A model generated the notes under the pieces. It had not been told where the DNA came from. It did no database searches and saw nothing but the letters and a program-made list of their open reading frames with translations. Positions 71-10,080 of a DNA stretch of 10,080 nt are shown here, piece by piece (position 1 is the first letter of the stretch; each line of letters starts with the position of its first letter). Source of the DNA: Pseudomonadota bacterium (GTDB lineage Bacteria; Bdellovibrionota; FAC87; UBA2466); the NCBI GenBank assembly GCA_043767805.1, contig JAYUGC010000152.1, positions 1 to 10,080 on the forward strand, read 5' to 3'. Position numbers and translations under genes: made by a program.

Positions 71-157
71 CCCTTTTTTGGCGGTAGTTACATTATATAC
101 CGGGGGAGAGTTGGGTGCCGTTGCCGCTTTTGGGATGGTGTGGAAGGATGCGGAGCC

Positions 158-2353
158 ATGGGTCAAGAGATGAGCTTGGAAGAGAGCCGCCGCCGGCGGA
201 GGGAGAAGATCACGGTCGTGATCTTGACCCTCGTCATCGTCGTCTTCACGGCCATCGAAGTGCATCTTCTCAAGACTTCCGCCCAGCTCCCGTTCGTAAA
301 CAGCATCTTCTTCTTCGGGTTGATGAACCTGAACCTCATCCTGATCATGCTGCTGCTCTTTCTGGTTTTCAGAAACGCGGTGAAGCTGATTCTCGATGAG
401 CGGCGCCGAAAGACCGCGTCCCGGCTAAAAACCCGGCTCGTCTTCTGCTTCATCCTTTTCGCCATCATTCCCACGGTGCTGCTCTTCACCATTTCCGCGT
501 TCTACATCAAGAGCAGCTTCGATAAGTGGTTCAACGCGAAGATGGAAGGGACCCTCCGGCGGAGCATCGAAGTAGTGAAGAACTATTACGAAGGCACGGA
601 GACCAACGCGAATCATTTCGCCCGAAGGATCGCCCTGAAGCTCGCTTCCGGAAACAAGCTCGACGCGCCGATGTCGCGCTACCTGCAGGAAGCTCGCCTC
701 GAGTACGGCTTGGACGGGGTCGAGTTTTACGCCGACCCTTTTTCGCCGCGGGTCTCCACGACGCACCCGGAACGCTCTAAGTACATTCCGCCAGTGCCGC
801 TCGAGACTTTGAAACGGACTTTCGCGGGAACGGGTGAGTGCCGCATTCAAAACGTGGGCGGCGGCGAGCTCATTCGCTGCGGCGTTTTCATGGGCGTGGG
901 GAAGGGCGCCATTTTCGCGAGTTACTTTTTGCCGCTGGGGCTGGCGAGCCGGCTCGCCGACATCACGCTCACTTACGAAGATTACAAGAGCCATAACCCG
1001 CTCAACTATCCGATCAAGTCGACGTACTTCGCCATTCTTCTGATGGTGACGCTACTCATTCTCTTTACGGCCACCTGGACCGGATTTTACGTGGCAAGAA
1101 GGCTCACGGTTCCCATCGAGGAGCTCGCCAAGGGAACCGACGAAGTCGCGCGCGGAAATCTCGACTACCAGATTCCGCCCTCGGGAAACGACGAGCTCTT
1201 TCAGCTGGTCGAGTCCTTCAACCACATGATCCGAGACTTAAAGCACTCCAAGCAAGCGACGGAAGAGGCTCGTACCCATCTCGAAGTCCTTCTCGCCAGC
1301 GTGCAGTCGGGCGTGGTGTCTCTTGACGAGAACGGCCGTATCTCGATGATCAATCAGGCGGCGACCACACTTCTTCGTCACGACGCCGAAGTGCTACTCG
1401 GTAAGCCGTACTGGGCCATCATTCCAGAAGAGCACCGGCCCGAGTTCCGCGAGATCTTGCTCGCCGTGTACGGAACATCGAAAAGCGTTCGTCGCGAGCT
1501 GCGAATCAATACCGCGCGCGGCTCGATCACTTTGCTCGTCACGCTCAGCGCCCTTCGGGATGAAGGGAAGCGGCAGATGGGGGTCGTCGCCGTGTTCGAC
1601 GACGTGACCGACATCCAGAAGATGGAGCGCATGCTCGCCTGGCGCGAGGTCGCCAAGCGCATCGCTCACGAGATCAAAAACCCGCTTACGCCCATTCAGC
1701 TTTCTGTTCAGCGCCTGCGCCGGCGCTATCTCGACAAAATTCAGGACGATGGTACTTTCGACCAGGCAACCCAGATCATTCTCACCGAGGTCGATTCGCT
1801 GAAAACTCTAGTGAACGAGTTCTCCTCTTTCGCGCGCTTGCCCGAGATTCAGCAGAGGCCCGAGAGCTTAAATGAGATCACGCTCGAAGCCGCGAACCTC
1901 TACCGGGCGGCCCACGAGCGTATCGTTTTCGCAATCGATCTGGCCGAAGAGCTTCCCCCCATGCAGCTCGATCGCGCGCAGTTAAAACGCGTGCTCATCA
2001 ACCTGTTCGATAACGCCGTGGATGCCATGAAGCAGACGGGCCGGATCGAGGTATCTACCGACTGGGATAGAGAGGGAGGCCTCATCAAGCTCACCGTAGC
2101 GGATGAAGGTTGCGGTATAGACGAAGCGGTTTATAGTCAGGTTTTCGAGCCCTATTTCTCGACTAAACAGGGCGGCACGGGTCTGGGACTGGCCATCGTT
2201 CAGCGCATCGTCTCCGACCATGGGGGATTTGTCAGGGTGGGGCCGAATCGGCCCAGCGGTATGCGATTCACTTTGGAATTTCCCGAAACATTACGCATCG
2301 ATCCTCGCCGGGGGCTCACTAGAGAAAACCGGCCGGAAGAGACTTTGTCATGA
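158..2353 (+). CDS. ntrY: NtrY-family membrane sensor histidine kinase (TM helices, periplasmic domain, HAMP, PAS, HisKA, HATPase_c)
   Basis: Three N-terminal hydrophobic helices plus one after the periplasmic domain. HAMP (ARRLTVPIEELAKGTDEVARGNLD), PAS (LLASVQSGVVSLDENGRISMINQAA), NtrY-type H-box (AWREVAKRIAHEIKNPLTPIQLS), N-box (LINLFDNAVDAM), G1 (DEGCGI), F (FEPYFSTK) and G2 (GTGLGLAIV). The start is uncertain: GTG 140, ATG 158 (AAGGA at 144-148) or ATG 170. Confidence 0.88.
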   Translation: MGQEMSLEESRRRRREKITVVILTLVIVVFTAIEVHLLKTSAQLPFVNSIFFFGLMNLNLILIMLLLFLVFRNAVKLILDERRRKTASRLKTRLVFCFILFAIIPTVLLFTISAFYIKSSFDKWFNAKMEGTLRRSIEVVKNYYEGTETNANHFARRIALKLASGNKLDAPMSRYLQEARLEYGLDGVEFYADPFSPRVSTTHPERSKYIPPVPLETLKRTFAGTGECRIQNVGGGELIRCGVFMGVGKGAIFASYFLPLGLASRLADITLTYEDYKSHNPLNYPIKSTYFAILLMVTLLILFTATWTGFYVARRLTVPIEELAKGTDEVARGNLDYQIPPSGNDELFQLVESFNHMIRDLKHSKQATEEARTHLEVLLASVQSGVVSLDENGRISMINQAATTLLRHDAEVLLGKPYWAIIPEEHRPEFREILLAVYGTSKSVRRELRINTARGSITLLVTLSALRDEGKRQMGVVAVFDDVTDIQKMERMLAWREVAKRIAHEIKNPLTPIQLSVQRLRRRYLDKIQDDGTFDQATQIILTEVDSLKTLVNEFSSFARLPEIQQRPESLNEITLEAANLYRAAHERIVFAIDLAEELPPMQLDRAQLKRVLINLFDNAVDAMKQTGRIEVSTDWDREGGLIKLTVADEGCGIDEAVYSQVFEPYFSTKQGGTGLGLAIVQRIVSDHGGFVRVGPNRPSGMRFTLEFPETLRIDPRRGLTRENRPEETLS

Positions 2354-3705
2354 TTTTGCGGCGCTTACTCATCATCGACGACGAGGAAAACATCCTCGCC
2401 TCCTTAAAGGGAGTTCTGGAGGACGAGAAATTCGTCGTGCAGACGGCGAGCAATGGGGAAGAAGGCTTAAAGCAGCTCCGTCGTTTCGCGCCCGACGTCG
2501 TGCTCCTCGACATCTGGATGCCGGGCGAAGACGGGCTCAAAGTCCTCGAAAAAATTAAAAAGGCCGACCCCTCGGTGGTGGTCGTCATGATGTCCGGGCA
2601 CGGCACCGTCGAGACCGCGGTCAAAGCCATCAAGCTCGGCGCCTTCGATTTCCTCGAAAAACCGCTCCATTTCGACAAGGTTTTGGTCGTGCTCCAGCAC
2701 GCCTTCGTCCTCCGCTCGCTCAAAGACGAGAACCGCGATCTCAGAGAAAAGCTGCGTACGGAGGAGCCTCTCATCGGCGAGAGCGCGACCATGCAGCACC
2801 TAAAACACCTGATTTCCGTCGCGGCTCCGTCGAACGGCTGGGTGCTTATCCTAGGCGAGAACGGCACCGGAAAAGAGCTCGTGGCGCGCGCTCTGCACGA
2901 CGGCAGTCCCCGGTCTCAAAGCCGGTTCGTGGCGGTGAACTGCGCGGCCATCCCCGAAGAGCTCATCGAAAGCGAGCTTTTCGGCCATGAAAAAGGCTCG
3001 TTCACGGGAGCCGTGGAACGCAAAATCGGTAAGTTCGAGCAGGCCGACGGGGGCACCCTCTTTCTCGACGAGGTCGGGGACATGGGCCCCAAGATGCAGG
3101 CGAAGATTCTGCGCGCCCTTCAGGAATGCACGATTTCGCGCGTCGGTGGGAGCGAGCCCATCGAGGTCGATATCCGAGTCATCGCGGCGACCAATAAGGA
3201 TTTGCGCCAGAACATCAAGACGGGCGACTTCCGCGAAGACCTCTTCTACCGCTTGAACGTCATCCCGATTCAGGTACCTCCGCTTCGGGAGCGCAAAGCG
3301 GACTTGCCCCTTCTCGTGAGCCATTTTCTGCGCCGTTATTCCGCCGGAAAAACCATTGAAGTGGTGGGCGAAACCTATGAAATTCTAAAGAGTTACTCGT
3401 GGCCGGGGAACGTCCGGGAGCTCAAAAACTGGGTGGAGCGCGCTTGCATCCTCAACCAGACCAATGTCATAGACTCTTCGACTGTCGAGAGTATAGAATC
3501 GGGCGGGCAAGAAACAGATACTTTTGCCTTTGAGGAGAAGAGCTTACGGGCCGCGAGAGCGTCTTTCGAGAAGCACTTCATCCTCAAGATGCTGACCGAA
3601 AATGGGGGCAATATCTCCAAGACCGCGCAGATCATCGGCGTGGAACGGAGTCACCTCCATAAGAAGATGAGGAGCTATGGCATACGGGAGTTACCCAACT
3701 CTTGA
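2350..3705 (+). CDS. ntrX: NtrX/NtrC-family sigma-54-dependent response regulator (REC, AAA+, Fis-type HTH)
   Basis: REC domain ([15 protein letters not shown] phospho-Asp, MMSGHG, FLEKP). Walker [24 protein letters not shown] loop, Walker [26 protein letters not shown], and C-terminal HTH ([21 protein letters not shown]). ATGA overlap with the kinase stop codon. Confidence 0.88.
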
Positions 3706-4768
3706 TCTCACCAATGGGATCAAGCGCCGCAAGACCCGTGAAATCACCGTCGGGACTGTGAAGCTGGGTGGGGAGAACCCCATCCGCGTGCAATCCATGA
3801 CGACGCCGAAGACCGCGGATGTGGCCGCGGTGGTAGCTCAGGTGAAAGATCTCGAAGCGGCCGGCTGCGAAATCATTCGCATCACCGTGAATCACGAAGA
3901 AGCCTCCGACGCGCTTCCCGCCATTCTCAAGGAATTGACCATCCCGGTCATCGCCGACGTGCATTTCGATTACAAAATGGCGCTCGCCTCTCTCAAGACG
4001 GACGTTGCCTGCGTGCGCATCAATCCGGGCAATATCGGCGCCGAGTGGAAGACGCTCGAAATCGTGAAGATGGCGCGCGACTTAGGGAAAGCCATCCGCA
4101 TCGGCGTGAACGCGGGCTCTCTCGAAAAACCTCTTCTGAAAAAGTACGGGCACCCCACCTCCGACGCTTTGGTGGAGAGCGCGCTGGCCGCGGTCGCGCT
4201 GCTCGAAGGCCAGAATTTTTATAATTTCAAAATTTCCATCAAGTCCTCGAACGTCATCGAGAACTTCATCGCTTACACGAAGCTTTCCGCGCAAACCGAA
4301 GCGCCCATGCACATCGGCGTGACGGAAGCGGGCACTCGCCACTACGGCGCCGTGAAATCCGCGGTTGGATTGGGCAGCCTTCTCATGATGGGCATCGGCG
4401 ACACGCTCCGCGTGTCTCTCAGCACCGATCCGGTCGAGGAAGTAAAAACCGGCGTTTATATTTTGAAGTCGTTGGGCTTAAAAAACGATACTCCCGAGAT
4501 CATCGCGTGCCCGAGCTGCGGCCGCGCCGATATCGACGTGTACAAGCTTGCCGAAGAAGTCGAGCGCCGCGCGCTCGGCATGAAGAAGAACATCAAGATC
4601 GCCGTCATGGGTTGTGTGGTTAACGGCCCGGGTGAGTCCATGGAAGCCGACATCGGCATCGCCGGTGGTAAGGGCGAAGGGCTCGTCTACAAAAAGGGCG
4701 TCGCGATCAAAAAAGTCCCCGAGGCCGAGATGCTCGGCTACCTAATGTCCGAAATCGAGAAAATGTAA
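3677..4768 (+). CDS. ispG: (E)-4-hydroxy-3-methylbut-2-enyl-diphosphate synthase (MEP pathway, [4Fe-4S])
   Basis: Motifs VQSMT, ADVHFD, RINPGN, IRIGVNAGSL, HIGVTEAG, GIGDTLRVSL, and Fe-S ligands CPSCGR and AVMGCVVNGPGE. At 363 aa it is the two-domain form. The start overlaps ntrX by 29 nt, with GAGGAG at 3669-3674. Confidence 0.96.
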   Translation: MAYGSYPTLDLTNGIKRRKTREITVGTVKLGGENPIRVQSMTTPKTADVAAVVAQVKDLEAAGCEIIRITVNHEEASDALPAILKELTIPVIADVHFDYKMALASLKTDVACVRINPGNIGAEWKTLEIVKMARDLGKAIRIGVNAGSLEKPLLKKYGHPTSDALVESALAAVALLEGQNFYNFKISIKSSNVIENFIAYTKLSAQTEAPMHIGVTEAGTRHYGAVKSAVGLGSLLMMGIGDTLRVSLSTDPVEEVKTGVYILKSLGLKNDTPEIIACPSCGRADIDVYKLAEEVERRALGMKKNIKIAVMGCVVNGPGESMEADIGIAGGKGEGLVYKKGVAIKKVPEAEMLGYLMSEIEKM

Positions 4769-4771
4769 GGA
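4766..4771 (+). promoter_or_regulatory. Shine-Dalgarno-like TAAGGA for proS, overlapping the ispG stop codon
   Basis: TAAGGA-TTT-ATG, where the TAA is the ispG stop (4766-4768). Confidence 0.6.
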
Positions 4772-4774
4772 TTT

Positions 4775-6205
4775 ATGGCGGAACGTATCACTCCCCGGGA
4801 GAAGGATTTCTCCCAATGGTATCTCGACATCATCACCCACGCGAAGCTCGCCGACGAAAGCGGAGTCCGCGGCTGCATGGTGATTCGCCCCAACGGCTAC
4901 GCGCTTTGGGAAGTGGTCCAACAGAATTTGGACAAACGATTTAAAGAGACCGGCCACCGGAACGCTTACTTTCCGATGTTCATTCCGGAAAGCCTTCTGA
5001 AAAAAGAGAAGGACCACGTGGAAGGCTTCGCGCCCGAGTGCGCGGTCGTCACCCACGGCGGCGGCAAGAAGTTGGAAGAGCCGCTCATCGTGCGGCCCAC
5101 CTCCGAAGTCATCATCAACTCGATGTACTCGAAGTGGATCCAGAGCTACCGCGATTTGCCGGTGCTCATCAACCAATGGGCGAACGTAGTGCGCTGGGAG
5201 ATGCGGACCCGCCCGTTTCTCCGCACCCTCGAGTTTCTCTGGCAAGAAGGCCATACCTGTCATGCCGACGAGGACGAGGCTCGCAAGGAATCGATGAAGA
5301 TGCTCGACGTCTATCAGACGTTCATGAGGGACATCCTCGCCATTCCGGGCATCCCGGGACAAAAGACCGAGAACGAGAAATTCGCGGGCGCTTTGCAGAC
5401 TTATTCCGTCGAGACCATGATGCAGGACAAGAAAGCCCTGCAAGCGTGCACGACGCATTACTTCGGCACCAAATTCGCCGAAGTGTTCAATATCAAGTTC
5501 CAGAGCAAAGAAGGTAAGCAGCAGTACGTGCACCAGACGTCTTGGGGCATGTCGACCCGGATCATCGGCGCGCTGATCATGACCCATAGTGATGACCAAG
5601 GGCTCGTGCTTCCGCCGAAAGCGGCGCCAACCCAAATCGTCATCGTGTCCATCACCCAAAAGAACAAAGACAATACCCGCGTTCTCGAAGTGTCTCGCCA
5701 GATCCACAAGGATTTACTCGCGGCCGGTTTCCGGGTGGAGCTCGACGATCGTGAGGGACAGTCGGCTGGCTTTAAGTTCAACGAATGGGAAGTGCAAGGC
5801 ATTCCCCTTCGGGTCGAAGTCGGCCCGCGCGACCTCGAACAGAATCTCGTGACGCTTGCCCGCCGCGACGGCATCAAGGTGCAATCCAAGCTCGAGGAAG
5901 TGGTGGGCGCCATCGGCCCGATCTTGGACCGGCTGCAAAAAGATCTCTACGTGAAGGCCGCCGATCGCCTGAAGAACAACACGTTCCTCGAAGACGACTA
6001 CAAAAAGTTCCAGGAGCGGCTAGAGGGCGAGGGCGGTTTCTACCAACTTCACTGGTGCGGCAACGGCGATTGCGAAAAGAAGATTAAAGAAGAGACGAAA
6101 GCCACGAGCCGCTGCATTCCTTTCGATCAAATCAAGGAAGCCGGCAAGTGCATCCGTTGCGGAAGCCCTTCGAACGGTCGCGTCATCTTCGCCCGCAATT
6201 ACTGA
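4775..6205 (+). CDS. proS: Proline--tRNA ligase, archaeal/eukaryote-like type (no INS editing domain, C-terminal Zn-binding domain)
   Basis: DFSQWYLDII, VRGCMVIRPNGY, HVEGFAPE, VRPTSE, motif 2 NQWANVVRWEMRTRPFLRTLEFLWQEGHT, motif 3 QTSWGMSTRIIGA, anticodon-binding domain (GIPLRVEVGPRD), Cys-rich C-terminal domain (WCG..C..RC..CIRCG) and terminal ARNY. Length 476 aa. Confidence 0.96.
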   Translation: MAERITPREKDFSQWYLDIITHAKLADESGVRGCMVIRPNGYALWEVVQQNLDKRFKETGHRNAYFPMFIPESLLKKEKDHVEGFAPECAVVTHGGGKKLEEPLIVRPTSEVIINSMYSKWIQSYRDLPVLINQWANVVRWEMRTRPFLRTLEFLWQEGHTCHADEDEARKESMKMLDVYQTFMRDILAIPGIPGQKTENEKFAGALQTYSVETMMQDKKALQACTTHYFGTKFAEVFNIKFQSKEGKQQYVHQTSWGMSTRIIGALIMTHSDDQGLVLPPKAAPTQIVIVSITQKNKDNTRVLEVSRQIHKDLLAAGFRVELDDREGQSAGFKFNEWEVQGIPLRVEVGPRDLEQNLVTLARRDGIKVQSKLEEVVGAIGPILDRLQKDLYVKAADRLKNNTFLEDDYKKFQERLEGEGGFYQLHWCGNGDCEKKIKEETKATSRCIPFDQIKEAGKCIRCGSPSNGRVIFARNY

Positions 6206-6356: not shown

Positions 6357-7046
6357 GTGCCTCCCTCCACTCGACTCCTCCTGGTCACCGCACTCGCGGT
6401 ATGTCTAGCTATCGCTCGCGCGGCCCATGCCGCTGAGCGCCAAGAGCCCGTGCCTGCGCCGACGGCCGAGGCCGCTGGGGCGGCTGAAAAGCCGGTCATC
6501 GACATGGAGCATGCGGAAACGTTCATCGACGTTTCCGAGGCCATTCGTAGCCGCCAATACGTGCAGCGCACCATCCTTTCCACCGTCATCCGCGCCACCA
6601 CCAAGTTCTCGATGGATCGGTTTTATGTGAACCATTTGATGGGCTTTAGCTCCGTCATCCAAGCGAGCGGTAAGTCATCCTCGGGCCTACAGGGGCTCGC
6701 GACCGGTTACGTCAGCAGTGGGGGACATGGGTTTGAGGTCGGGGCCGAGTTCTCGGCGGTGAGTAACGTGTACGCGGGGTACCGCTATATCTATCGCCCC
6801 GATAACTTCTCGCTCTGGCCGATTCTTGGCTTCGGGGCCGGGATGGAAGTCAATGCGTTGAACATTTCCAAGCCGCCCCGGTTCAATCCGGACAACCCGG
6901 TAATCCCCAAGTCCCTCTTTTACGGGATGGCGGGACTGCTCATTCCGCTGGTGGACGTGGGTCTGCGCGCGGAAGTCCGTTTCTCAGTTCAGGGCATGAG
7001 ACGGCTCATCCTCACCCAAGGTCTCGGGCTGATCGTGTTTCTCTAA
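6357..7046 (+). CDS. Hypothetical secreted protein, probable 8-stranded outer-membrane beta-barrel (OmpA-like/OMP_b-brl fold)
   Basis: Sec signal peptide (R, LLLVTALAVCLAIA, AHA cleavage site) and a Pro/Ala-rich linker. About 8 amphipathic Gly/aromatic strands follow: FYVNHLMGF, GLQGLATGYV, GFEVGAEF, VYAGYRYIY, LWPILGFGAG, FYGMAGLLIP, VGLRAEVRF, QGLGLIVF. GTG start. Confidence 0.7.
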   Translation: MPPSTRLLLVTALAVCLAIARAAHAAERQEPVPAPTAEAAGAAEKPVIDMEHAETFIDVSEAIRSRQYVQRTILSTVIRATTKFSMDRFYVNHLMGFSSVIQASGKSSSGLQGLATGYVSSGGHGFEVGAEFSAVSNVYAGYRYIYRPDNFSLWPILGFGAGMEVNALNISKPPRFNPDNPVIPKSLFYGMAGLLIPLVDVGLRAEVRFSVQGMRRLILTQGLGLIVFL

Positions 7047-7076: not shown

Positions 7077-10000
7077 TTAGGGCTTGCTGAAGACTTCGAA
7101 CTGCTCGACGTGGAACGCCGGGTCCGCTTTCACCACGATTTGACGCTGCAGGCGCTCTTCCAAGCCCTTCCAGTGCGTCTTCTCTTCTTTCGTGATGCGT
7201 CCGATGACTTCCGAGTTCGCGAACACCACGATGTTCTTATGGGTCGTCGCGATGGCTTCCTTCTCGATCTCGCGGAAGATCTCAAAGCAGATGGTCTTTC
7301 TGCTCTTGTGATAGCCGCGGCCTTCGCAATACCCGCACTGTTCCGTCAGGTAACGGACCAAGTCTTCGTGCGTCCGCTTGCGGGTCATCTCCACGAGACC
7401 TAGCTCGGAAATCTTCAGGATGTTCGTCTTCGCGCGATCTTCCGATAGCGCTTCCTGGAGAGCGTCATAAACTTTTTTACGGTTCTGGGCGTTCTCCATG
7501 TCGATGAGATCGATGATGATGATGCCGCCGATGTTGCGGATGCGGAGCTGATAGGAGATCTCTTTGACCGCTTCCAGGTTGGTCTTGAGGATCGTCTCTT
7601 CCAAGCTCTTCGAGCCGACGTAACGGCCCGTATTCACGTCGATGGCGGTAAGCGCTTCCGACTGATCGATGAGCAGATATCCGCCCGACTTCAGCCAGAC
7701 TTTCTTGCCGAGCGCGCGCGAGATCTCCGCTTCGATGCCGTAATGCTCAAAGAGCTGAGACGGCCCCTTGAAGAGCTTTACGCGGCCCTTCAGGCGAGGG
7801 CTGAACTGCGAGATGAAGCCGAGTACGTTCTCGTAATCCTGCTGGTTGTCGATGACGAGAGAGTCCACGTCGTCCGTGAAATCATCGCGCATCGTTTTGA
7901 GAGCAAGTCCCAAGTCTTCGTGAATGAGGGCGGGTGCCTTCTTTTTCTTGGTGTTCTCCTGAATTTCCTCCCAAAGATGGAGGAGATAGTCGGCATCCGC
8001 TTTCAGCTCGCGGTAGCTCTTACCTTCGGCGACGGTACGGATGATGAACCCGACCTGGCCATTGGTGCGGATCTTCTTCGTGAAGATGTCGCGGAGCCGT
8101 CTCCGTTCCCGATCGCTTTCGATGCGGCGGGAGATGCCGAGGTGCTTTACCGTCGGCATCAGCACTAAATTTCTGCCCGGAAGGCTGATATGCGTGGTCA
8201 AGCGCGCGCCCTTGGTGCCGATGGGCGCCTTGGCGACTTGCACGAGAAGCTCTTGGCCTTCCTTCAACAAATCCTGAATCTCGACGTTTCGGCGCTCTCT
8301 ACGGCGAGTCCGGCCTCCGCCGCCTCCGCCACTGCGTCCCCCACGGCCTCGCCCTGGCGAGCCGCCGCGCCGATTGTCGCGCCGTCCGCCGCCTTCACGG
8401 CCGCGTCCCTGGCCGCCGCGATCTCTGTCGCCTACGCCGCGGGCATTCACGCGCGGATCTTCGTTACGGTCGCCGCCGCGATCGTTCCTGCTATCGATGT
8501 GCCGCTGATCCCGGTCACCCGGGTTATCGCGATCCAAGCGCGGGTCTTCGTTGTTTCTGTCGTGCCGGTCGGGCTCGACTCCTTGATTCGGATCCCGTTC
8601 GCCAGGAGCGTGCTGCTGGAAGCGGGCGTCGTCGTTAAATCTCGCGTTGCGATCTTCTTCTTGGCGCGGTTCGCGATCGTCCGGCCGATTTTCCTGCCGG
8701 TTATCCGTGCGCTGTCCGCGGTCGGCCTGGGGACGATTGTCCTGGCGGCCTTCCGGATTGTTCCCGCCCTGATCGCGGCCGCCGCCCTGGCGATTGCGAT
8801 CGCCGCCGCGGCGGTTATCGCGGTGTCCGCCGCCGTGGCCTCTGTCCCGGTTATCCCGGTTGTCTTGGCGGCCTTCCGGATTGCGATTGCGATCGGGCGC
8901 GTTTTGAATGCGATCGATGGGATCGCGAAGCTCGAGGCGCGGATGCTGCGGCTGTGCGGGCGCATTGGCATCGGCGGGCTGGCCTTCGCCCTGCTGGGGC
9001 TGACCTTCCTGTTGAGGCGCTGCCTCACCGTCCTGCTTGAGGGCTTCGGGCGGCTGCGGATTTTGTTCCGCATTGAGCAAAGCTTGTTCTTGCTCTCTCT
9101 TGATGCGTTCCGCCGGATCCACCAGGATAAGACGGGGATGGGAAACGACGGGCTTGGGCTCGTTCGTGACCGCTGCTTGTGGTTCCGTCGAATTCTGATT
9201 GGCGGCGTCGGTCGGCGCCTGAGTTTGCGTTTGGGCCGCTTCCGGATTTTGCGCCGTCGCGACCGGCGGATTTTGTTCGGCGAGAGCCGCTTGTTCTTGC
9301 TCGCGCTTGATGCGTTCCGACGGATCCTTCAATTCCAAACGAGGGTGAGGTCCGTACACTTCGAGCCGCTCGGGTCGTTCCCGGCGTCCGCCCCGCTCAC
9401 CGCGAGGTTGGTCGTCTCTTTGACGGCCTCCGCGATCGCCGCGCGCGTCCCGGTTTTGATCCCGGCCCTGATCGCGCCCGCGTCCCCCGCGGCCCCGATC
9501 TCTATCCCGGCCGCGGCCTGAGCCTTGTTGCTGCCCGCCGCCTTCACGGCCACGTCCGCCCTGGTCGCGGCCTTGCTGACGGTCCTGTCCGTCGCGGGAA
9601 TGAACGCGATTGCCGCGGCCCTCCTCATCGTCAGTGCGCGGGGCTTGGGGAAGAGGCTGTCCGTCGGGACCGAGCGCCACCACTTGCGGTACCGCGCCTT
9701 CCCCGGCCGGCTGAGCTTCGGTGCCGGGCTCGTCACCTTCGCCCGTTTCTAAATCTTCGCCTTCGTCGTCCTCTTCATCCCCTTCGAGGTCGGCGTCTAA
9801 ATCGGAGTCGCTCTCGTCGTCGACATCGCTGGAGCTATCGGAATCTCCGTCGCCATCTCCGTCGCTCTCCGTGTCGCCGTAATCGAACTCGGTGCCGAAG
9901 GGCTCATCGATGATGTCGTCGACGTAAAGAAAAGCGGTGCGCTCGAGACCGAGCTCCAAAAAGGCGGCCTGCATTCCGGGAAGAACGCGCTTAACGAGGC

Positions 10001-10079
10001 CCTTATAAATATTTCCAACGACGTTACGATCTTCTTCGCGCTCGATGTGAAGGCTTTTGATCTCTCCGTCCTCGAGGGT
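7077..10079 (-). CDS. rng: Rne/Rng-family endoribonuclease (RNase G-like, no C-terminal scaffold) with a ~540-aa insertion in the S1 domain; 5' end lies outside the window
   Basis: The frame is open upstream of ATG 9974 to the window edge and reads TLEDGEIKSLHIEREEDRNVVGNIYKGLVKRVLPGMQAAFLELGLERTAFLYVDDI (start of S1). S1 resumes at VEIQDLLKEGQELLVQVAKAPIGTKGARLT. Also present: 5'-sensor motifs GISRRIE and GFIIRT, catalytic Asp motifs LTAIDVNTG and GGIIIIDLIDM, SELGLVEMTRKR, and Zn-link CGYC. The protein ends right after the small domain (FEVFSKP). Confidence 0.92.
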   Translation of the reverse strand, partial: TLEDGEIKSLHIEREEDRNVVGNIYKGLVKRVLPGMQAAFLELGLERTAFLYVDDIIDEPFGTEFDYGDTESDGDGDGDSDSSSDVDDESDSDLDADLEGDEEDDEGEDLETGEGDEPGTEAQPAGEGAVPQVVALGPDGQPLPQAPRTDDEEGRGNRVHSRDGQDRQQGRDQGGRGREGGGQQQGSGRGRDRDRGRGGRGRDQGRDQNRDARGDRGGRQRDDQPRGERGGRRERPERLEVYGPHPRLELKDPSERIKREQEQAALAEQNPPVATAQNPEAAQTQTQAPTDAANQNSTEPQAAVTNEPKPVVSHPRLILVDPAERIKREQEQALLNAEQNPQPPEALKQDGEAAPQQEGQPQQGEGQPADANAPAQPQHPRLELRDPIDRIQNAPDRNRNPEGRQDNRDNRDRGHGGGHRDNRRGGDRNRQGGGRDQGGNNPEGRQDNRPQADRGQRTDNRQENRPDDREPRQEEDRNARFNDDARFQQHAPGERDPNQGVEPDRHDRNNEDPRLDRDNPGDRDQRHIDSRNDRGGDRNEDPRVNARGVGDRDRGGQGRGREGGGRRDNRRGGSPGRGRGGRSGGGGGGRTRRRERRNVEIQDLLKEGQELLVQVAKAPIGTKGARLTTHISLPGRNLVLMPTVKHLGISRRIESDRERRRLRDIFTKKIRTNGQVGFIIRTVAEGKSYRELKADADYLLHLWEEIQENTKKKKAPALIHEDLGLALKTMRDDFTDDVDSLVIDNQQDYENVLGFISQFSPRLKGRVKLFKGPSQLFEHYGIEAEISRALGKKVWLKSGGYLLIDQSEALTAIDVNTGRYVGSKSLEETILKTNLEAVKEISYQLRIRNIGGIIIIDLIDMENAQNRKKVYDALQEALSEDRAKTNILKISELGLVEMTRKRTHEDLVRYLTEQCGYCEGRGYHKSRKTICFEIFREIEKEAIATTHKNIVVFANSEVIGRITKEEKTHWKGLEERLQRQIVVKADPAFHVEQFEVFSKP
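8901..9347 (-). repeat. Three copies of the intragenic peptide repeat HPRLxLxDPxxRI, two of them extended by KREQEQA..AEQNP
   Basis: Copies at 9347-9267 (HPRLELKDPSERIKREQEQAALAEQNP), 9140-9057 (HPRLILVDPAERIKREQEQALLNAEQNP) and 8945-8901 (HPRLELRDPIDRIQN). Confidence 0.85.
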
Positions 10080-10080
10080 G

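What the first reader, a model, noticed from the sequence alone, without database searches (positions are those of the whole stretch)
8286..9911. RNase G/E with a ~540-aa disordered region inside the S1 domain instead of a C-terminal scaffold: a possible 'inside-out' degradosome
Seen: about 542 residues separate AFLYVDDI from VEIQDLLKEGQ, the two halves of the S1 domain. They are almost entirely polar, charged or Gly/Pro, in one uninterrupted frame, and the protein stops directly after the catalytic small domain. Established: E. coli RNase G has only a short loop here, E. coli and Caulobacter RNase E carry their disordered degradosome scaffold C-terminally, and moderate S1 insertions are known in actinobacterial and plastid RNase E. 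Inference: this enzyme has placed a scaffold comparable in size to the E. coli RNase E CTD inside the mobile RNA-clamping S1 domain, a distinct architecture for degradosome assembly or condensate formation.
Basis: partly seen in the sequence, partly recalled or inferred. Interest (0 to 1): 0.82.

Follow-up and report, generated by a model that had tools for sequence, protein, structure and literature searches.

The report
Giant disordered loop inside ribonuclease S1 domain
The only RNase E/G-type RNA-cutting enzyme of this Bdellovibrio-like bacterium carries a real 542-residue floppy, highly charged segment inside its RNA-binding S1 module and has no tail; this is an oversized, lineage-typical form of a smaller insertion already known in Caulobacter and plant enzymes, and its role is untested.

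Summary
542 residues (window 8286-9911, minus strand) separate AFLYVDDI from VEIQDLLKEGQ in one open frame, and the protein ends 4 residues after the small domain. Catalytic, 5'-sensor and Zn-link residues align with E. coli RNase E. The insert sits where E. coli has a 15-residue loop and where Caulobacter RNase E has its known S1 insert. AlphaFold2 gives a confident core and pLDDT under 50 for the insert, apart from two short helices.

It is not unique. In 65 close homologues the same loop holds 76-578 residues with no C-terminal tail, and 65 of 66 inserts, the window's included, share an acidic-first, basic-last polarity. Other families of the phylum have about 30 residues there, or 250-340 plus a tail. 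This scan has noted similar giant S1 inserts on other DNA. I found no paper describing them outside alpha-proteobacteria and plants.

The scaffold or condensate reading is plausible but untested. The genome has no second RNase E/G. Its PNPase and two RRM proteins carry RGG tails. Verdict: real, a new variant of a known kind, of moderate interest.

The parts
7077..10079 (-). Partial CDS of the sole Rne/Rng-family endoribonuclease (1000 codons plus stop at 7077-7079). About 17 N-terminal codons lie beyond the contig end.
9912..10079 (-). N-terminal piece: end of the RNase H-like part and S1 strands beta1-beta3 (residues 1-56). It aligns to E. coli RNase E residues 24-71.
   Evidence: PDB alignment; strands 24-33, 38-42, 49-52, block-mean pLDDT 76-93
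8286..9911 (-). The 542-residue S1-loop insertion (residues 57-598): pI 4.96, net charge -28.
9876..9911 (-). Conserved N-flank of the insert (residues 57-68, IDEPFGxDVD-like). P60 is invariant in 66 of 66 close homologues.
9708..9911 (-). Acidic block (residues 57-124, net charge -33).
9372..9641 (-). First Arg/Gly/Asp/Gln-rich near-neutral polyampholyte block with RGG-type runs (residues 147-236).
9273..9347 (-). Unit 1: HPRLELKDP motif (residues 245-253) followed by a predicted helix (253-269; 10-residue block pLDDT 75 and 83).
   Evidence: (39-nt direct repeat D3, 92% identical to unit 2)
9072..9140 (-). Unit 2: HPRLILVDP motif (residues 314-322) followed by a predicted helix (322-336).
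8919..8945 (-). Unit 3: HPRLELRDP motif (residues 379-387), with no predicted helix.
8400..8903 (-). Second Arg/Asp/Asn/Gly-rich block (residues 393-560). It includes an internal 27-nt duplication (NPEGRQDNR) and the islands GERDxNQGVExDRHDRNNEDPRL and NEDPR(V/L) shared with P0003.
8286..8399 (-). Terminal RGG/Arg-rich basic block leading into S1 strand beta4 (residues 561-598; net +8 over residues 561-592).
7080..8285 (-). C-terminal 402 residues: second half of S1 (K623 aligns to E. coli K112), 5' sensor (R681, T682), catalytic Asp residues (D814, D857), Zn link (C915, C918) and small domain.

Best explanation
SHOWN: this is an intact gene for the organism's only RNase E/G-family endoribonuclease. 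The loop between S1 strand beta3 and the helix/beta4 has been expanded to 542 residues of low-complexity, predicted-disordered sequence, and there is no C-terminal non-catalytic region. The loop is the same one that carries the 50-150-residue S1 insert of alpha-proteobacterial and plant RNase E. In this bacterial family the insert is always present, varies 76-578 residues, evolves mostly by indels and internal duplications, and keeps one constant design: a strongly acidic first part, a net-basic Arg/Gly-rich last part and an overall negative charge.

INFERRED (most likely mechanism): the insert is this lineage's counterpart of the RNase E non-catalytic region. Its Arg/Gly/Asp blocks and terminal RGG box probably act as extra, flexible RNA-binding arms placed beside the S1/5'-sensor RNA channel. 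If the enzyme is a tetramer like E. coli RNase E, there would be four such arms per enzyme. The acidic block would pair electrostatically with those basic blocks, and with the RGG tails found on the same genome's PNPase and RRM proteins. That would give multivalent, salt-sensitive self-association of the kind that drives Caulobacter BR-bodies, and possibly gate RNA access to the S1 cleft. The three HPRLxLxDP units are candidate docking sites for an unknown partner.
For: Identity and integrity:
- Pfam RNase_E_G E 1e-104, and TIGR00757 at 480.6 bits against a cut-off of 326.
- K623, R681/T682, D814, D857 and C915/C918 align with E. coli K112, R169/T170, D303, D346 and C404/C407, and are invariant in 83 aligned homologues.

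Site of the insert:
- Query residues 7-54 align to E. coli 24-71 and query 600 to E. coli 89.
- The two halves flank a 62-residue gap in the Caulobacter chain 4OXP at the same place.

Disorder:
- AF2 pLDDT is 85-97 in the core and under 50 across the insert, except for helices 253-269 and 322-336.
- VLIMFWY make up 8.1% of the insert.

Lineage pattern:
- 65 of 65 measured close homologues have the extra length in this loop (76-578 residues) and no tail.
- 65 of 66 inserts (the window's included) are acidic-first and basic-last, and 66 of 66 are net negative.
- The same polarity holds in 28 of 33 distant homologues with inserts of at least 60 residues.

Genome context:
- One RNase E/G match in a genome rated 100% complete.
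- No RNase Y match, and RNase J is present.
- PNPase has an 80-residue RGG tail, 80-395 residues in nine family relatives with complete tails.
- The strongest RGG clusters in the genome's open frames fall in PNPase, two RRM-domain proteins and this insert.
- PNPase open frames are 701-725 aa in 5 of 5 phylum genomes whose RNase lacks the insert, and 745-799 aa in 5 of 5 that have an insert plus a tail.

Motif:
- HPR[LIV]x[LIV]xDP occurs 3 times in 3.44 million open-frame residues of the genome, all in this insert. It recurs in relative P0003.

Literature analogy:
- The Caulobacter RNase E CTD has alternating charge clusters, a low pI, and sticker interactions between basic blocks and RNA or acidic blocks (PMC13616956, passages read).
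Against: No experiment or expression data exist for this protein.

Sequence conservation inside the insert is almost nil. The same-genus relative P0002 is 96% identical in the catalytic part but shares no detectable similarity beyond the flanks, and only P0003 shares motif islands.

Length varies seven-fold, and Bdellovibrio-type families of the phylum manage with about 30 residues here. Most of the length may therefore be dispensable.

The charge layout is one large acidic block plus mixed blocks, not the regular alternation described for Caulobacter.

The co-occurrence with PNPase tails rests on 10 hand-picked genomes plus one family. Kin are not independent, and a shared mutational bias would give the same pattern. 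RNase insert length and PNPase tail length do not correlate within the family (Spearman -0.30, p 0.17, n 23; by genus -0.16, n 10).

Low pLDDT is not proof of disorder.
Confidence: 0.55

Rival explanations
1. Tolerated low-complexity expansion. Only a short acid/base core of about 60-80 residues in the loop is functional, as in the shortest family members. The other 460 or so residues come from slippage and segmental duplication in a permissive surface loop and have no role of their own.
For: The length range is 76-578 with a continuous distribution. There is no sequence similarity to the same-genus relative beyond the flanks. Internal duplications are present: 39 nt at 92% identity and 27 nt at 93%. 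Family members with 76-94-residue inserts have equally conserved catalytic parts. PNPase tails vary just as widely, which fits a lineage-wide mutational tendency.
Against: Charge polarity and net negative charge are kept in 65 of 66 and 66 of 66 inserts regardless of length. The frame stays open over 542 codons, with normal codon use. A repeated non-low-complexity motif is conserved between two species. RGG-type regions are concentrated in RNA-related proteins rather than spread over the proteome.
Confidence: 0.25
2. A strict 'inside-out degradosome'. The insert carries specific short docking motifs that recruit defined partners (PNPase, a DEAD-box helicase, a metabolic enzyme), as the E. coli RNase E C-terminal domain does.
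For: Three HPRLxLxDP units, two followed by confidently predicted helices, resemble the 'microdomains' of the E. coli CTD. There is no CTD and no second RNase E/G. In Caulobacter, RhlB binds an N-terminal fragment that includes the S1 insert (PMC4245959). E. coli RNase E uses two or more motifs to hold one PNPase trimer (PMC12489471, abstract only).
Against: The motifs are found only in this protein and in P0003 among 66 close homologues, so no family-wide docking site exists. No partner has been identified.
Confidence: 0.2
3. Mainly an autoinhibitory gate. The acidic block mimics RNA and occupies the S1/5'-sensor channel, and substrate, partner or ionic conditions displace it.
For: An acidic block with net charge -33 starts 1 residue after S1 strand beta3. 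This polarity is conserved even in the shortest inserts. Voss 2014 saw a helix of the Caulobacter insert protruding into the predicted RNA site, and suggested that acidic side chains could mimic RNA.
Against: A gate would not need 542 residues. AF2 places no part of the insert on the core with confidence. This reading can coexist with the best explanation.
Confidence: 0.12
4. Artefact: a misassembly, a chimeric contig or a decaying pseudogene.
For: The contig ends 17 codons into the gene. Several relatives have this gene cut by contig ends. Short Logan contigs show loose ends at 7879, 8330, 8819 and 8984, and one back-joint from 8839 to 7861 in two runs.
Against: Per-run contigs of three runs span the whole insert with 0 differences and 0 gaps: X1 covers 7904-10080, X2 7934-10080 and X3 7296-10019. 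Two of them continue past the window end. All three come from one study and may be the source samples. Independently assembled genomes show the same architecture, with inserts of 464, 478, 523 and 576 residues. The frame is open and both flanks are in register.
Confidence: 0.02

Closest known systems
Caulobacter crescentus RNase E S1-domain insert (PDB 4OXP; Hardwick 2011 PMC3045602; Voss 2014 PMC4245959)
   Same: The insertion site in S1 is the same. It is also highly charged and predicted disordered, with some helical propensity. It lies beside the RNA channel.
   Different: Published inserts are about 50-150 residues, and those enzymes also have a long C-terminal scaffold. Here the insert is 542 residues with no C-terminal region, in a different phylum. 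Hardwick 2011 described the insert as absent from other bacterial classes.
E. coli RNase E C-terminal scaffold (RNA degradosome)
   Same: It is of comparable size. Both are disordered with Arg-rich segments and short islands of predicted structure, attached to the same catalytic core.
   Different: Here the region lies inside S1, not at the C-terminus. No amphipathic membrane-targeting segment is evident. No partner is known. The NCBIfam RNase E equivalog score of 283 is far below the 908 cut-off.
E. coli RNase G (CafA/Rng)
   Same: It is the best NCBIfam match (NF008689, 497 bits). Both end right after the small domain, and the catalytic residues are conserved.
   Different: The score is below the equivalog cut-off of 594. 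This protein is twice the length because of the S1 insert, and it is the sole family member in its genome rather than a paralogue beside RNase E.
Caulobacter BR-body scaffold (charge-clustered, low-pI RNase E CTD; PMC13616956)
   Same: Both have a low pI (4.96 here), net negative charge, acidic and basic clusters, and Arg-rich RNA-binding blocks.
   Different: The position differs. Here there is a single dominant acidic block rather than regular alternation. Condensate formation is untested.
Plant plastid RNase E (Arabidopsis RNE) S1 insertion
   Same: It has an insert at the S1 loop. As cited in Voss 2014, deleting it reduced activity, which shows that such inserts can matter.
   Different: It is much shorter, and the plant enzyme also has an N-terminal extension. 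I read only the citing passage and the listing of PMC2486463.

Membership tests
Rne/Rng ribonuclease family (Pfam PF10150, TIGR00757) | Match to the catalytic-domain profile above the curated cut-off | tested here: met
   PF10150 scores 350 bits against a cut-off of 25.5, and TIGR00757 scores 480.6 against 325.95. The best structural matches are E. coli RNase E chains, E 2e-36.
Rne/Rng ribonuclease family (Pfam PF10150, TIGR00757) | Catalytic Asp pair, 5'-sensor Arg-Thr, S1 Lys and CxxC Zn link (E. coli numbering recalled from memory) | tested here: met
   D814, D857, R681, T682, K623, C915 and C918 align to E. coli D303, D346, R169, T170, K112, C404 and C407. All are invariant in 83 homologues.
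RNase G (NCBIfam equivalog NF008689) | Score above the equivalog cut-off; compact protein of about 490 residues | tested here: not met
   497.1 bits against a cut-off of 594. The length is about 1017 residues.
RNase E (NCBIfam equivalogs NF008074, NF052586, NF052588) | Score above the equivalog cut-off; long non-catalytic C-terminal (or N- and C-terminal) region | tested here: not met
   Scores of 283, 272 and 263 bits against cut-offs of 908, 900 and 1400. The protein ends 4 residues after the small domain.
S1-insert RNase E of alpha-proteobacteria and plants (Voss 2014) | Insertion in the same S1 loop, charged and predicted disordered | tested here: met
   site; charged fraction 0.395; pLDDT under 50
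S1-insert RNase E of alpha-proteobacteria and plants (Voss 2014) | Insert length about 50-150 residues, alongside a separate C-terminal scaffold | tested here: not met
   The insert is 542 residues and there is no C-terminal region.
RNA degradosome scaffold | Defined partner-binding microdomains that recruit PNPase, a helicase or a metabolic enzyme | not testable with these tools
   Candidate units exist, but binding needs pull-down or structural work.
RNA degradosome scaffold | Amphipathic membrane-targeting helix (E. coli type) | tested here: not met
   Ten-residue windows with at least 4 VLIMFWY residues occur only at residues 127-139 and at or next to the three HPRL motif sites. The two predicted helices are polar.
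BR-body-type condensate scaffold | Charge-clustered IDR of low pI that phase-separates with RNA | tested here: inconclusive
   pI 4.96, net charge -28, an acidic block of -33 and a basic end. Phase separation cannot be tested here.

The most novel reading that the evidence does not exclude
In Pseudobdellovibrionaceae-like bacteria the whole RNA-decay scaffold has moved into the mobile S1 clamp of a tail-less RNase E/G. Its acidic block and Arg/Gly blocks, together with RGG tails that arose in parallel on PNPase and on RRM proteins, would form a bacterial RNP-granule network. In that network, condensate or partner engagement directly gates RNA entry to the active site.
Probability: 0.22. Interest if true: 0.75.

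Novelty: new variant of a known kind. Interest (0 to 1): 0.48.

Why it matters
RNase E scaffolds are the textbook example of a bacterial disordered hub, and every characterised one hangs off the C-terminus. Here, and across a whole family, a region of the same size sits inside the RNA-binding S1 module of an otherwise RNase G-like enzyme. The family shows a natural length series from 76 to 578 residues with a conserved acid-then-base polarity. That series is a ready-made experiment on what the length and charge pattern of a disordered region do to an RNase. It also shows that the S1 insert is not confined to alpha-proteobacteria and plants, as the passages I read from the two Caulobacter papers imply. 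The RGG tails on PNPase and on RRM proteins in the same genome suggest a wider, unexplored use of eukaryote-like RGG regions in bacterial RNA metabolism.

Tried and rejected
1. Complex prediction of the genome's PNPase (residues 1-700, 10-row alignment) with insert residues 236-275. The result was 'no answer' (score 0.02, mark 0.32). It counts neither for nor against binding.

2. Sequencing-run search. No RNA holder was listed, so nothing can be said about expression.

3. Correlation between RNase insert length and PNPase tail length within the family. It was not significant, so the idea of a shared 'IDR budget' was dropped.

4. Tandem Repeats Finder on the insert. It found only four tiny arrays (scores 30-46), so the insert is not a tandem array. 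Dispersed duplications were found instead.

5. Family-wide search for the HPRL motif. It is present in 2 of 66 inserts, so it is not a family-wide docking site.

6. BLAST of the insert against 119 other inserts plus genome-derived ones, with composition correction. Only P0003 matched.

7. The antisense ORF 8190-9521 on the + strand (443 aa). I treat it as a by-product of the GC-rich, biased composition, because the minus-strand frame joins two conserved domain halves in register. It was not tested further.

8. The listing of cluster members for organism names of ten homologues. The database was switched off, so most homologues remain unnamed.

9. Earlier-notes look-up by place. Nothing was returned.

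10. Foldseek on the full model. It confirms the RNase E fold of the C-terminal 400 residues but does not by itself verify packing of the split S1. That rests on the AF2 strand assignments and pLDDT.

11. Supplementary Figure S1 of Voss 2014, which tabulates S1 inserts, was not viewed. It may list longer inserts than the text states.
Full report
OBSERVATION. The window is a whole 10,080-base contig, G000:C152. On the minus strand one frame is open from 10079 down to a stop at 7077-7079, giving 1000 residues. AFLYVDDI ends at 9912 and VEIQDLLKEGQ begins at 8285. The segment is R 88, G 83, D 71, Q 51, E 50, P 45, A 35, N 33. Only 8.1% is VLIMFWY and 39.5% is charged. The reading frame has 0 stops, while the other five frames have 3-20, and 0 of 2000 shuffles stayed open. 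Synonymous codon use matches the catalytic part. The gene runs off the contig end. By comparison with homologues about 17 N-terminal codons are missing. The ATG at 9974 listed by the ORF tool is an internal Met of the S1 domain.

IDENTITY. Pfam finds RNase_E_G at residues 632-903 (E 1e-104) and the thioredoxin-like small domain at 914-996. NCBIfam places the protein in the Rne/Rng family: TIGR00757 scores 480.6 bits against a cut-off of 326. It stays below the equivalog cut-offs for RNase G (497 against 594) and RNase E (283 against 908). Against E. coli RNase E chains, the residues I recall as functional all align with identical residues here. These are K112, R169/T170, D303, D346 and C404/C407, matching K623, R681/T682, D814, D857 and C915/C918. 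All are invariant among 83 aligned homologues. The enzyme therefore looks catalytically competent.

WHERE THE INSERT SITS. Query residues 7-54 align to E. coli RNase E 24-71, and query 600 aligns to E. coli 89. E. coli thus has a 15-residue loop where this protein has 543 residues. In the Caulobacter fragment 4OXP the two halves align to chain positions 45-93 and 156-288, on either side of the published Caulobacter S1 insert. AlphaFold2 was run with an 83-row alignment. It gives strands at 24-33, 38-42 and 49-52, then a helix at 601-604 and strands at 610-617 and 625-628. The surrounding 10-residue blocks average pLDDT 76-93. This is the order expected for an OB/S1 fold with the insertion between beta3 and the helix/beta4. 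Foldseek's best matches are E. coli RNase E chains, E 2e-36.

ANATOMY OF THE INSERT.
- (i) Conserved flanks: IDEPFGxDVD-like at residues 57-68 and RR.R.. at the end.
- (ii) An acidic block at 57-124, net charge -33.
- (iii) Arg/Gly/Asp/Gln-rich near-neutral blocks with RGG runs.
- (iv) Three copies of HPRLxLxDP at residues 245, 314 and 379. The first two are followed by the only confidently predicted elements of the insert, helices 253-269 and 322-336 (10-residue block pLDDT 61-83).
- (v) A second Arg/Asp/Asn-rich region.
- (vi) A terminal RGG/Arg block, with net +8 over residues 561-592.

The whole insert has pI 4.96 and net charge -28, while the catalytic C-terminal part has pI 8.9. At the DNA level there is no tandem array. 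There are dispersed duplications: 39 nt at 92% identity, 207 nt apart, covering HPRL units 1 and 2, and 27 nt at 93% identity, 123 nt apart. The pattern HPR[LIV]x[LIV]xDP occurs three times in 3.44 million open-frame residues of the genome, all of them here.

ASSEMBLY. Per-run Logan contigs of three runs span the entire insert with no differences or gaps. X1 covers 7904-10080, X2 covers 7934-10080 and X3 covers 7296-10019. Two of them continue 1.4-1.9 kb beyond the window end. All three runs belong to one study and may be the source samples, so they are not independent of the contig. Some short contigs show loose ends inside the region, and one back-joint (8839 to 7861) appears in two runs. 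I read these as cross-matches or strain variants in low-complexity DNA, without proof. Independent genomes give the stronger argument (next paragraph).

RELATIVES. A search with the catalytic part, limited to proteins of 550-1750 residues, listed 120 homologues. I measured the loop in 119 of them; P0038 and P0109 gave no N-terminal hit. In the close clade (73-96% identity; 65 measured of 66) the loop holds 76-578 residues and none has a C-terminal tail. Counting the window's protein, 9 of 66 inserts are at least 440 residues and 2 of 66 are at least 500. Because of the length limit this search cannot show forms without an insert.

Whole-genome searches fill that gap. In the window's family, 32 of 34 genomes have the gene, with open frames of 533-1051 aa when complete. 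Three are at least 1000 aa, and five are cut by contig ends. Across the phylum, 200 of 201 sampled genomes have a match, nearly always a single one. Several families have frames of about 505-550 aa, and others have 860-1145 aa.

I measured 26 fetched loci directly. Four more family members have inserts of 464, 478, 523 and 576 residues and no tail. Fourteen of fifteen loci from other long-frame families have 250-341 residues in the loop, and the fifteenth has 90. All fifteen also carry a C-terminal tail. My fetched regions cut these tails at 72-110 residues. Subtracting from the open-frame lengths implies tails of up to about 330 residues, which is an inference. Two further loci hold 97 and 138 residues, with tails of about 20. 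Five short-frame genomes have only 28-48 residues in the loop.

The closest named relative is an uncultured Pseudobdellovibrionaceae MAG, 96% identical in the catalytic part. It lies on the same 36,482-base contig as the same-genus genome G004.

A CONSERVED DESIGN WITHOUT CONSERVED SEQUENCE. With composition correction, only P0003 shares significant similarity with the window's insert: the HPRLEL units and two islands near residues 468-546. The same-genus P0002 shares nothing beyond the flanks. Yet 65 of 66 close-clade inserts have an acidic first 40% (median net charge per residue -0.37) and a net-basic last 40% (+0.155). All 66 are net negative, with a median of -27.5. The exception on polarity is P0025. 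The same polarity holds in 28 of 33 more distant homologues with inserts of at least 60 residues. Even the 76-80-residue inserts are half acidic and half basic. This argues for selection on charge pattern rather than on sequence.

GENOME CONTEXT. The genome, rated 100% complete with 2.8% contamination, has one RNase E/G match, no RNase Y match and one RNase J above its cut-off. The RNase is thus the only family member and cannot delegate scaffold duty to a paralogue.

While fetching PNPase I found that it carries an 80-residue C-terminal GGR/FRGG tail. In the nine family relatives whose tails I measured whole, the tail is 110-395 residues of RGG or Arg/Asp/Pro repeats. A scan of all open frames for RGG clusters ranked PNPase first. 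Next came two small proteins that Pfam identifies as RRM domains with RGG tails, and this insert. A stricter scan for long charged low-complexity regions found 8 frames. The RNase had by far the longest, and three of the 8 looked like off-frame artefacts.

PNPase open frames are 701-725 aa in 5 of 5 phylum genomes whose RNase lacks the insert, and 745-799 aa in 5 of 5 whose RNase has an insert plus a tail. These ten genomes were hand-picked by the RNase feature and kin are not independent, so this is only a lead. Within the family the two lengths do not correlate.

LITERATURE. Hardwick 2011 (PMC3045602, passages) describes the S1 insert as a distinguishing feature of alpha-proteobacterial RNase E. 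It is described as absent from other bacterial classes but present in plants. Voss 2014 (PMC4245959, passages) gives lengths of about 50-150 residues. It names the only consistent properties as location, charge and predicted disorder. It solved part of the Caulobacter insert as helices protruding into the predicted RNA site, suggested acidic side chains could mimic RNA, mapped RhlB binding to the N-terminal fragment, and cites loss of activity on deleting the plant insert. A 2026 paper (PMC13616956, passages) describes the Caulobacter CTD as alternating charge clusters of low pI, whose basic blocks bind RNA or acidic blocks. Paris 2025 (PMC12489471, abstract only) reports that two or more RNase E motifs hold one PNPase trimer. 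Four full-text searches turned up no description of giant S1 inserts or of Bdellovibrionota RNase E/G. The term 'S1 insert' occurred only in the two Caulobacter papers among the 15 papers listed. Subscription journals are not covered, and I did not see Voss's Supplementary Figure S1.

EARLIER NOTES OF THIS SCAN. Five earlier findings on other genomes report the same kind of feature. One is a Bdellovibrio-like genome (293 residues), three are acidobacterial (325-550) and one is Kapaibacteria-like (about 350). These are unchecked AI notes. I confirmed only that the feature is typical of the Bdellovibrio-like lineage, using my own data.

MECHANISM. Shown: a competent RNase E/G core, a giant disordered charge-polarised loop at the known S1-insert site, no tail, no paralogue, and lineage-wide presence with extreme length variation. 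Inferred (confidence about 0.55): the loop is this lineage's non-catalytic region. Its Arg/Gly blocks would act as extra RNA-binding arms next to the substrate channel. Its acidic block would pair with them and with RGG tails of PNPase and RRM proteins, giving multivalent electrostatic assembly and possibly gating of the cleft.

The rivals are as follows:
- Neutral expansion around a short functional acid/base core (0.25).
- A strict motif-based degradosome scaffold (0.2).
- A pure autoinhibitory gate (0.12).
- An artefact (0.02).

These readings overlap, so the figures do not sum to one.

VERDICT. The feature is an extreme, lineage-typical variant of a known but poorly understood insertion. 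As far as I could search it is uncharacterised in print, and this scan has seen it repeatedly. Interest is moderate.

Noticed in passing
G000:C134:43116-45458 (minus strand; locus L051:1258-3588): The genome's PNPase carries an 80-residue C-terminal GGR/FRGG (RGG-box) tail. In nine family relatives with complete tails it is 110-395 residues of RGG or Arg/Asp/Pro repeats. PNPase frames are 701-725 aa in 5 of 5 phylum genomes whose RNase lacks the S1 insert, and 745-799 aa in 5 of 5 with an insert plus a tail.
   Followed up: partly
G000:C119:14334-14912 (minus) and G000:C29:806-1195 (plus): Two small proteins with a Pfam RRM_1 domain (E 2e-24 and 5e-24) and Gly/Arg-rich RGG tails. This layout is reminiscent of eukaryotic RNP-granule proteins.
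   Followed up: partly
window 6357-7046 (+): A 229-residue ORF, convergent with the RNase gene, has no Pfam match at E 1e-5.
   Followed up: no
window 140-6205 (+): Neighbouring genes are an NtrY-like sensor kinase (140-2353), a sigma-54 activator response regulator (2350-3705), IspG/GcpE (3677-4768) and prolyl-tRNA synthetase (4775-6205). No link to the RNase is evident.
   Followed up: no
G000:C184:6565-7656 (minus): An open frame of 364 residues with no Pfam family has a Gln/Gly/Asn-rich stretch and a short RGG run near its C-terminus.
   Followed up: no
window 7861-8984: In two runs, short Logan contigs show loose ends at 7879, 8330, 8819 and 8984 and a back-joint from 8839 to 7861 with 4 extra letters. 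These may be strain variants or cross-matches of low-complexity DNA from other organisms.
   Followed up: no
Family genomes G008, G009, G019, G026, G028 and window end 10080: The RNase gene is cut by contig ends in at least five relatives and in this window. GC-rich low-complexity inserts of this kind seem to break short-read assemblies, so lengths in MAG catalogues are probably underestimated.
   Followed up: no
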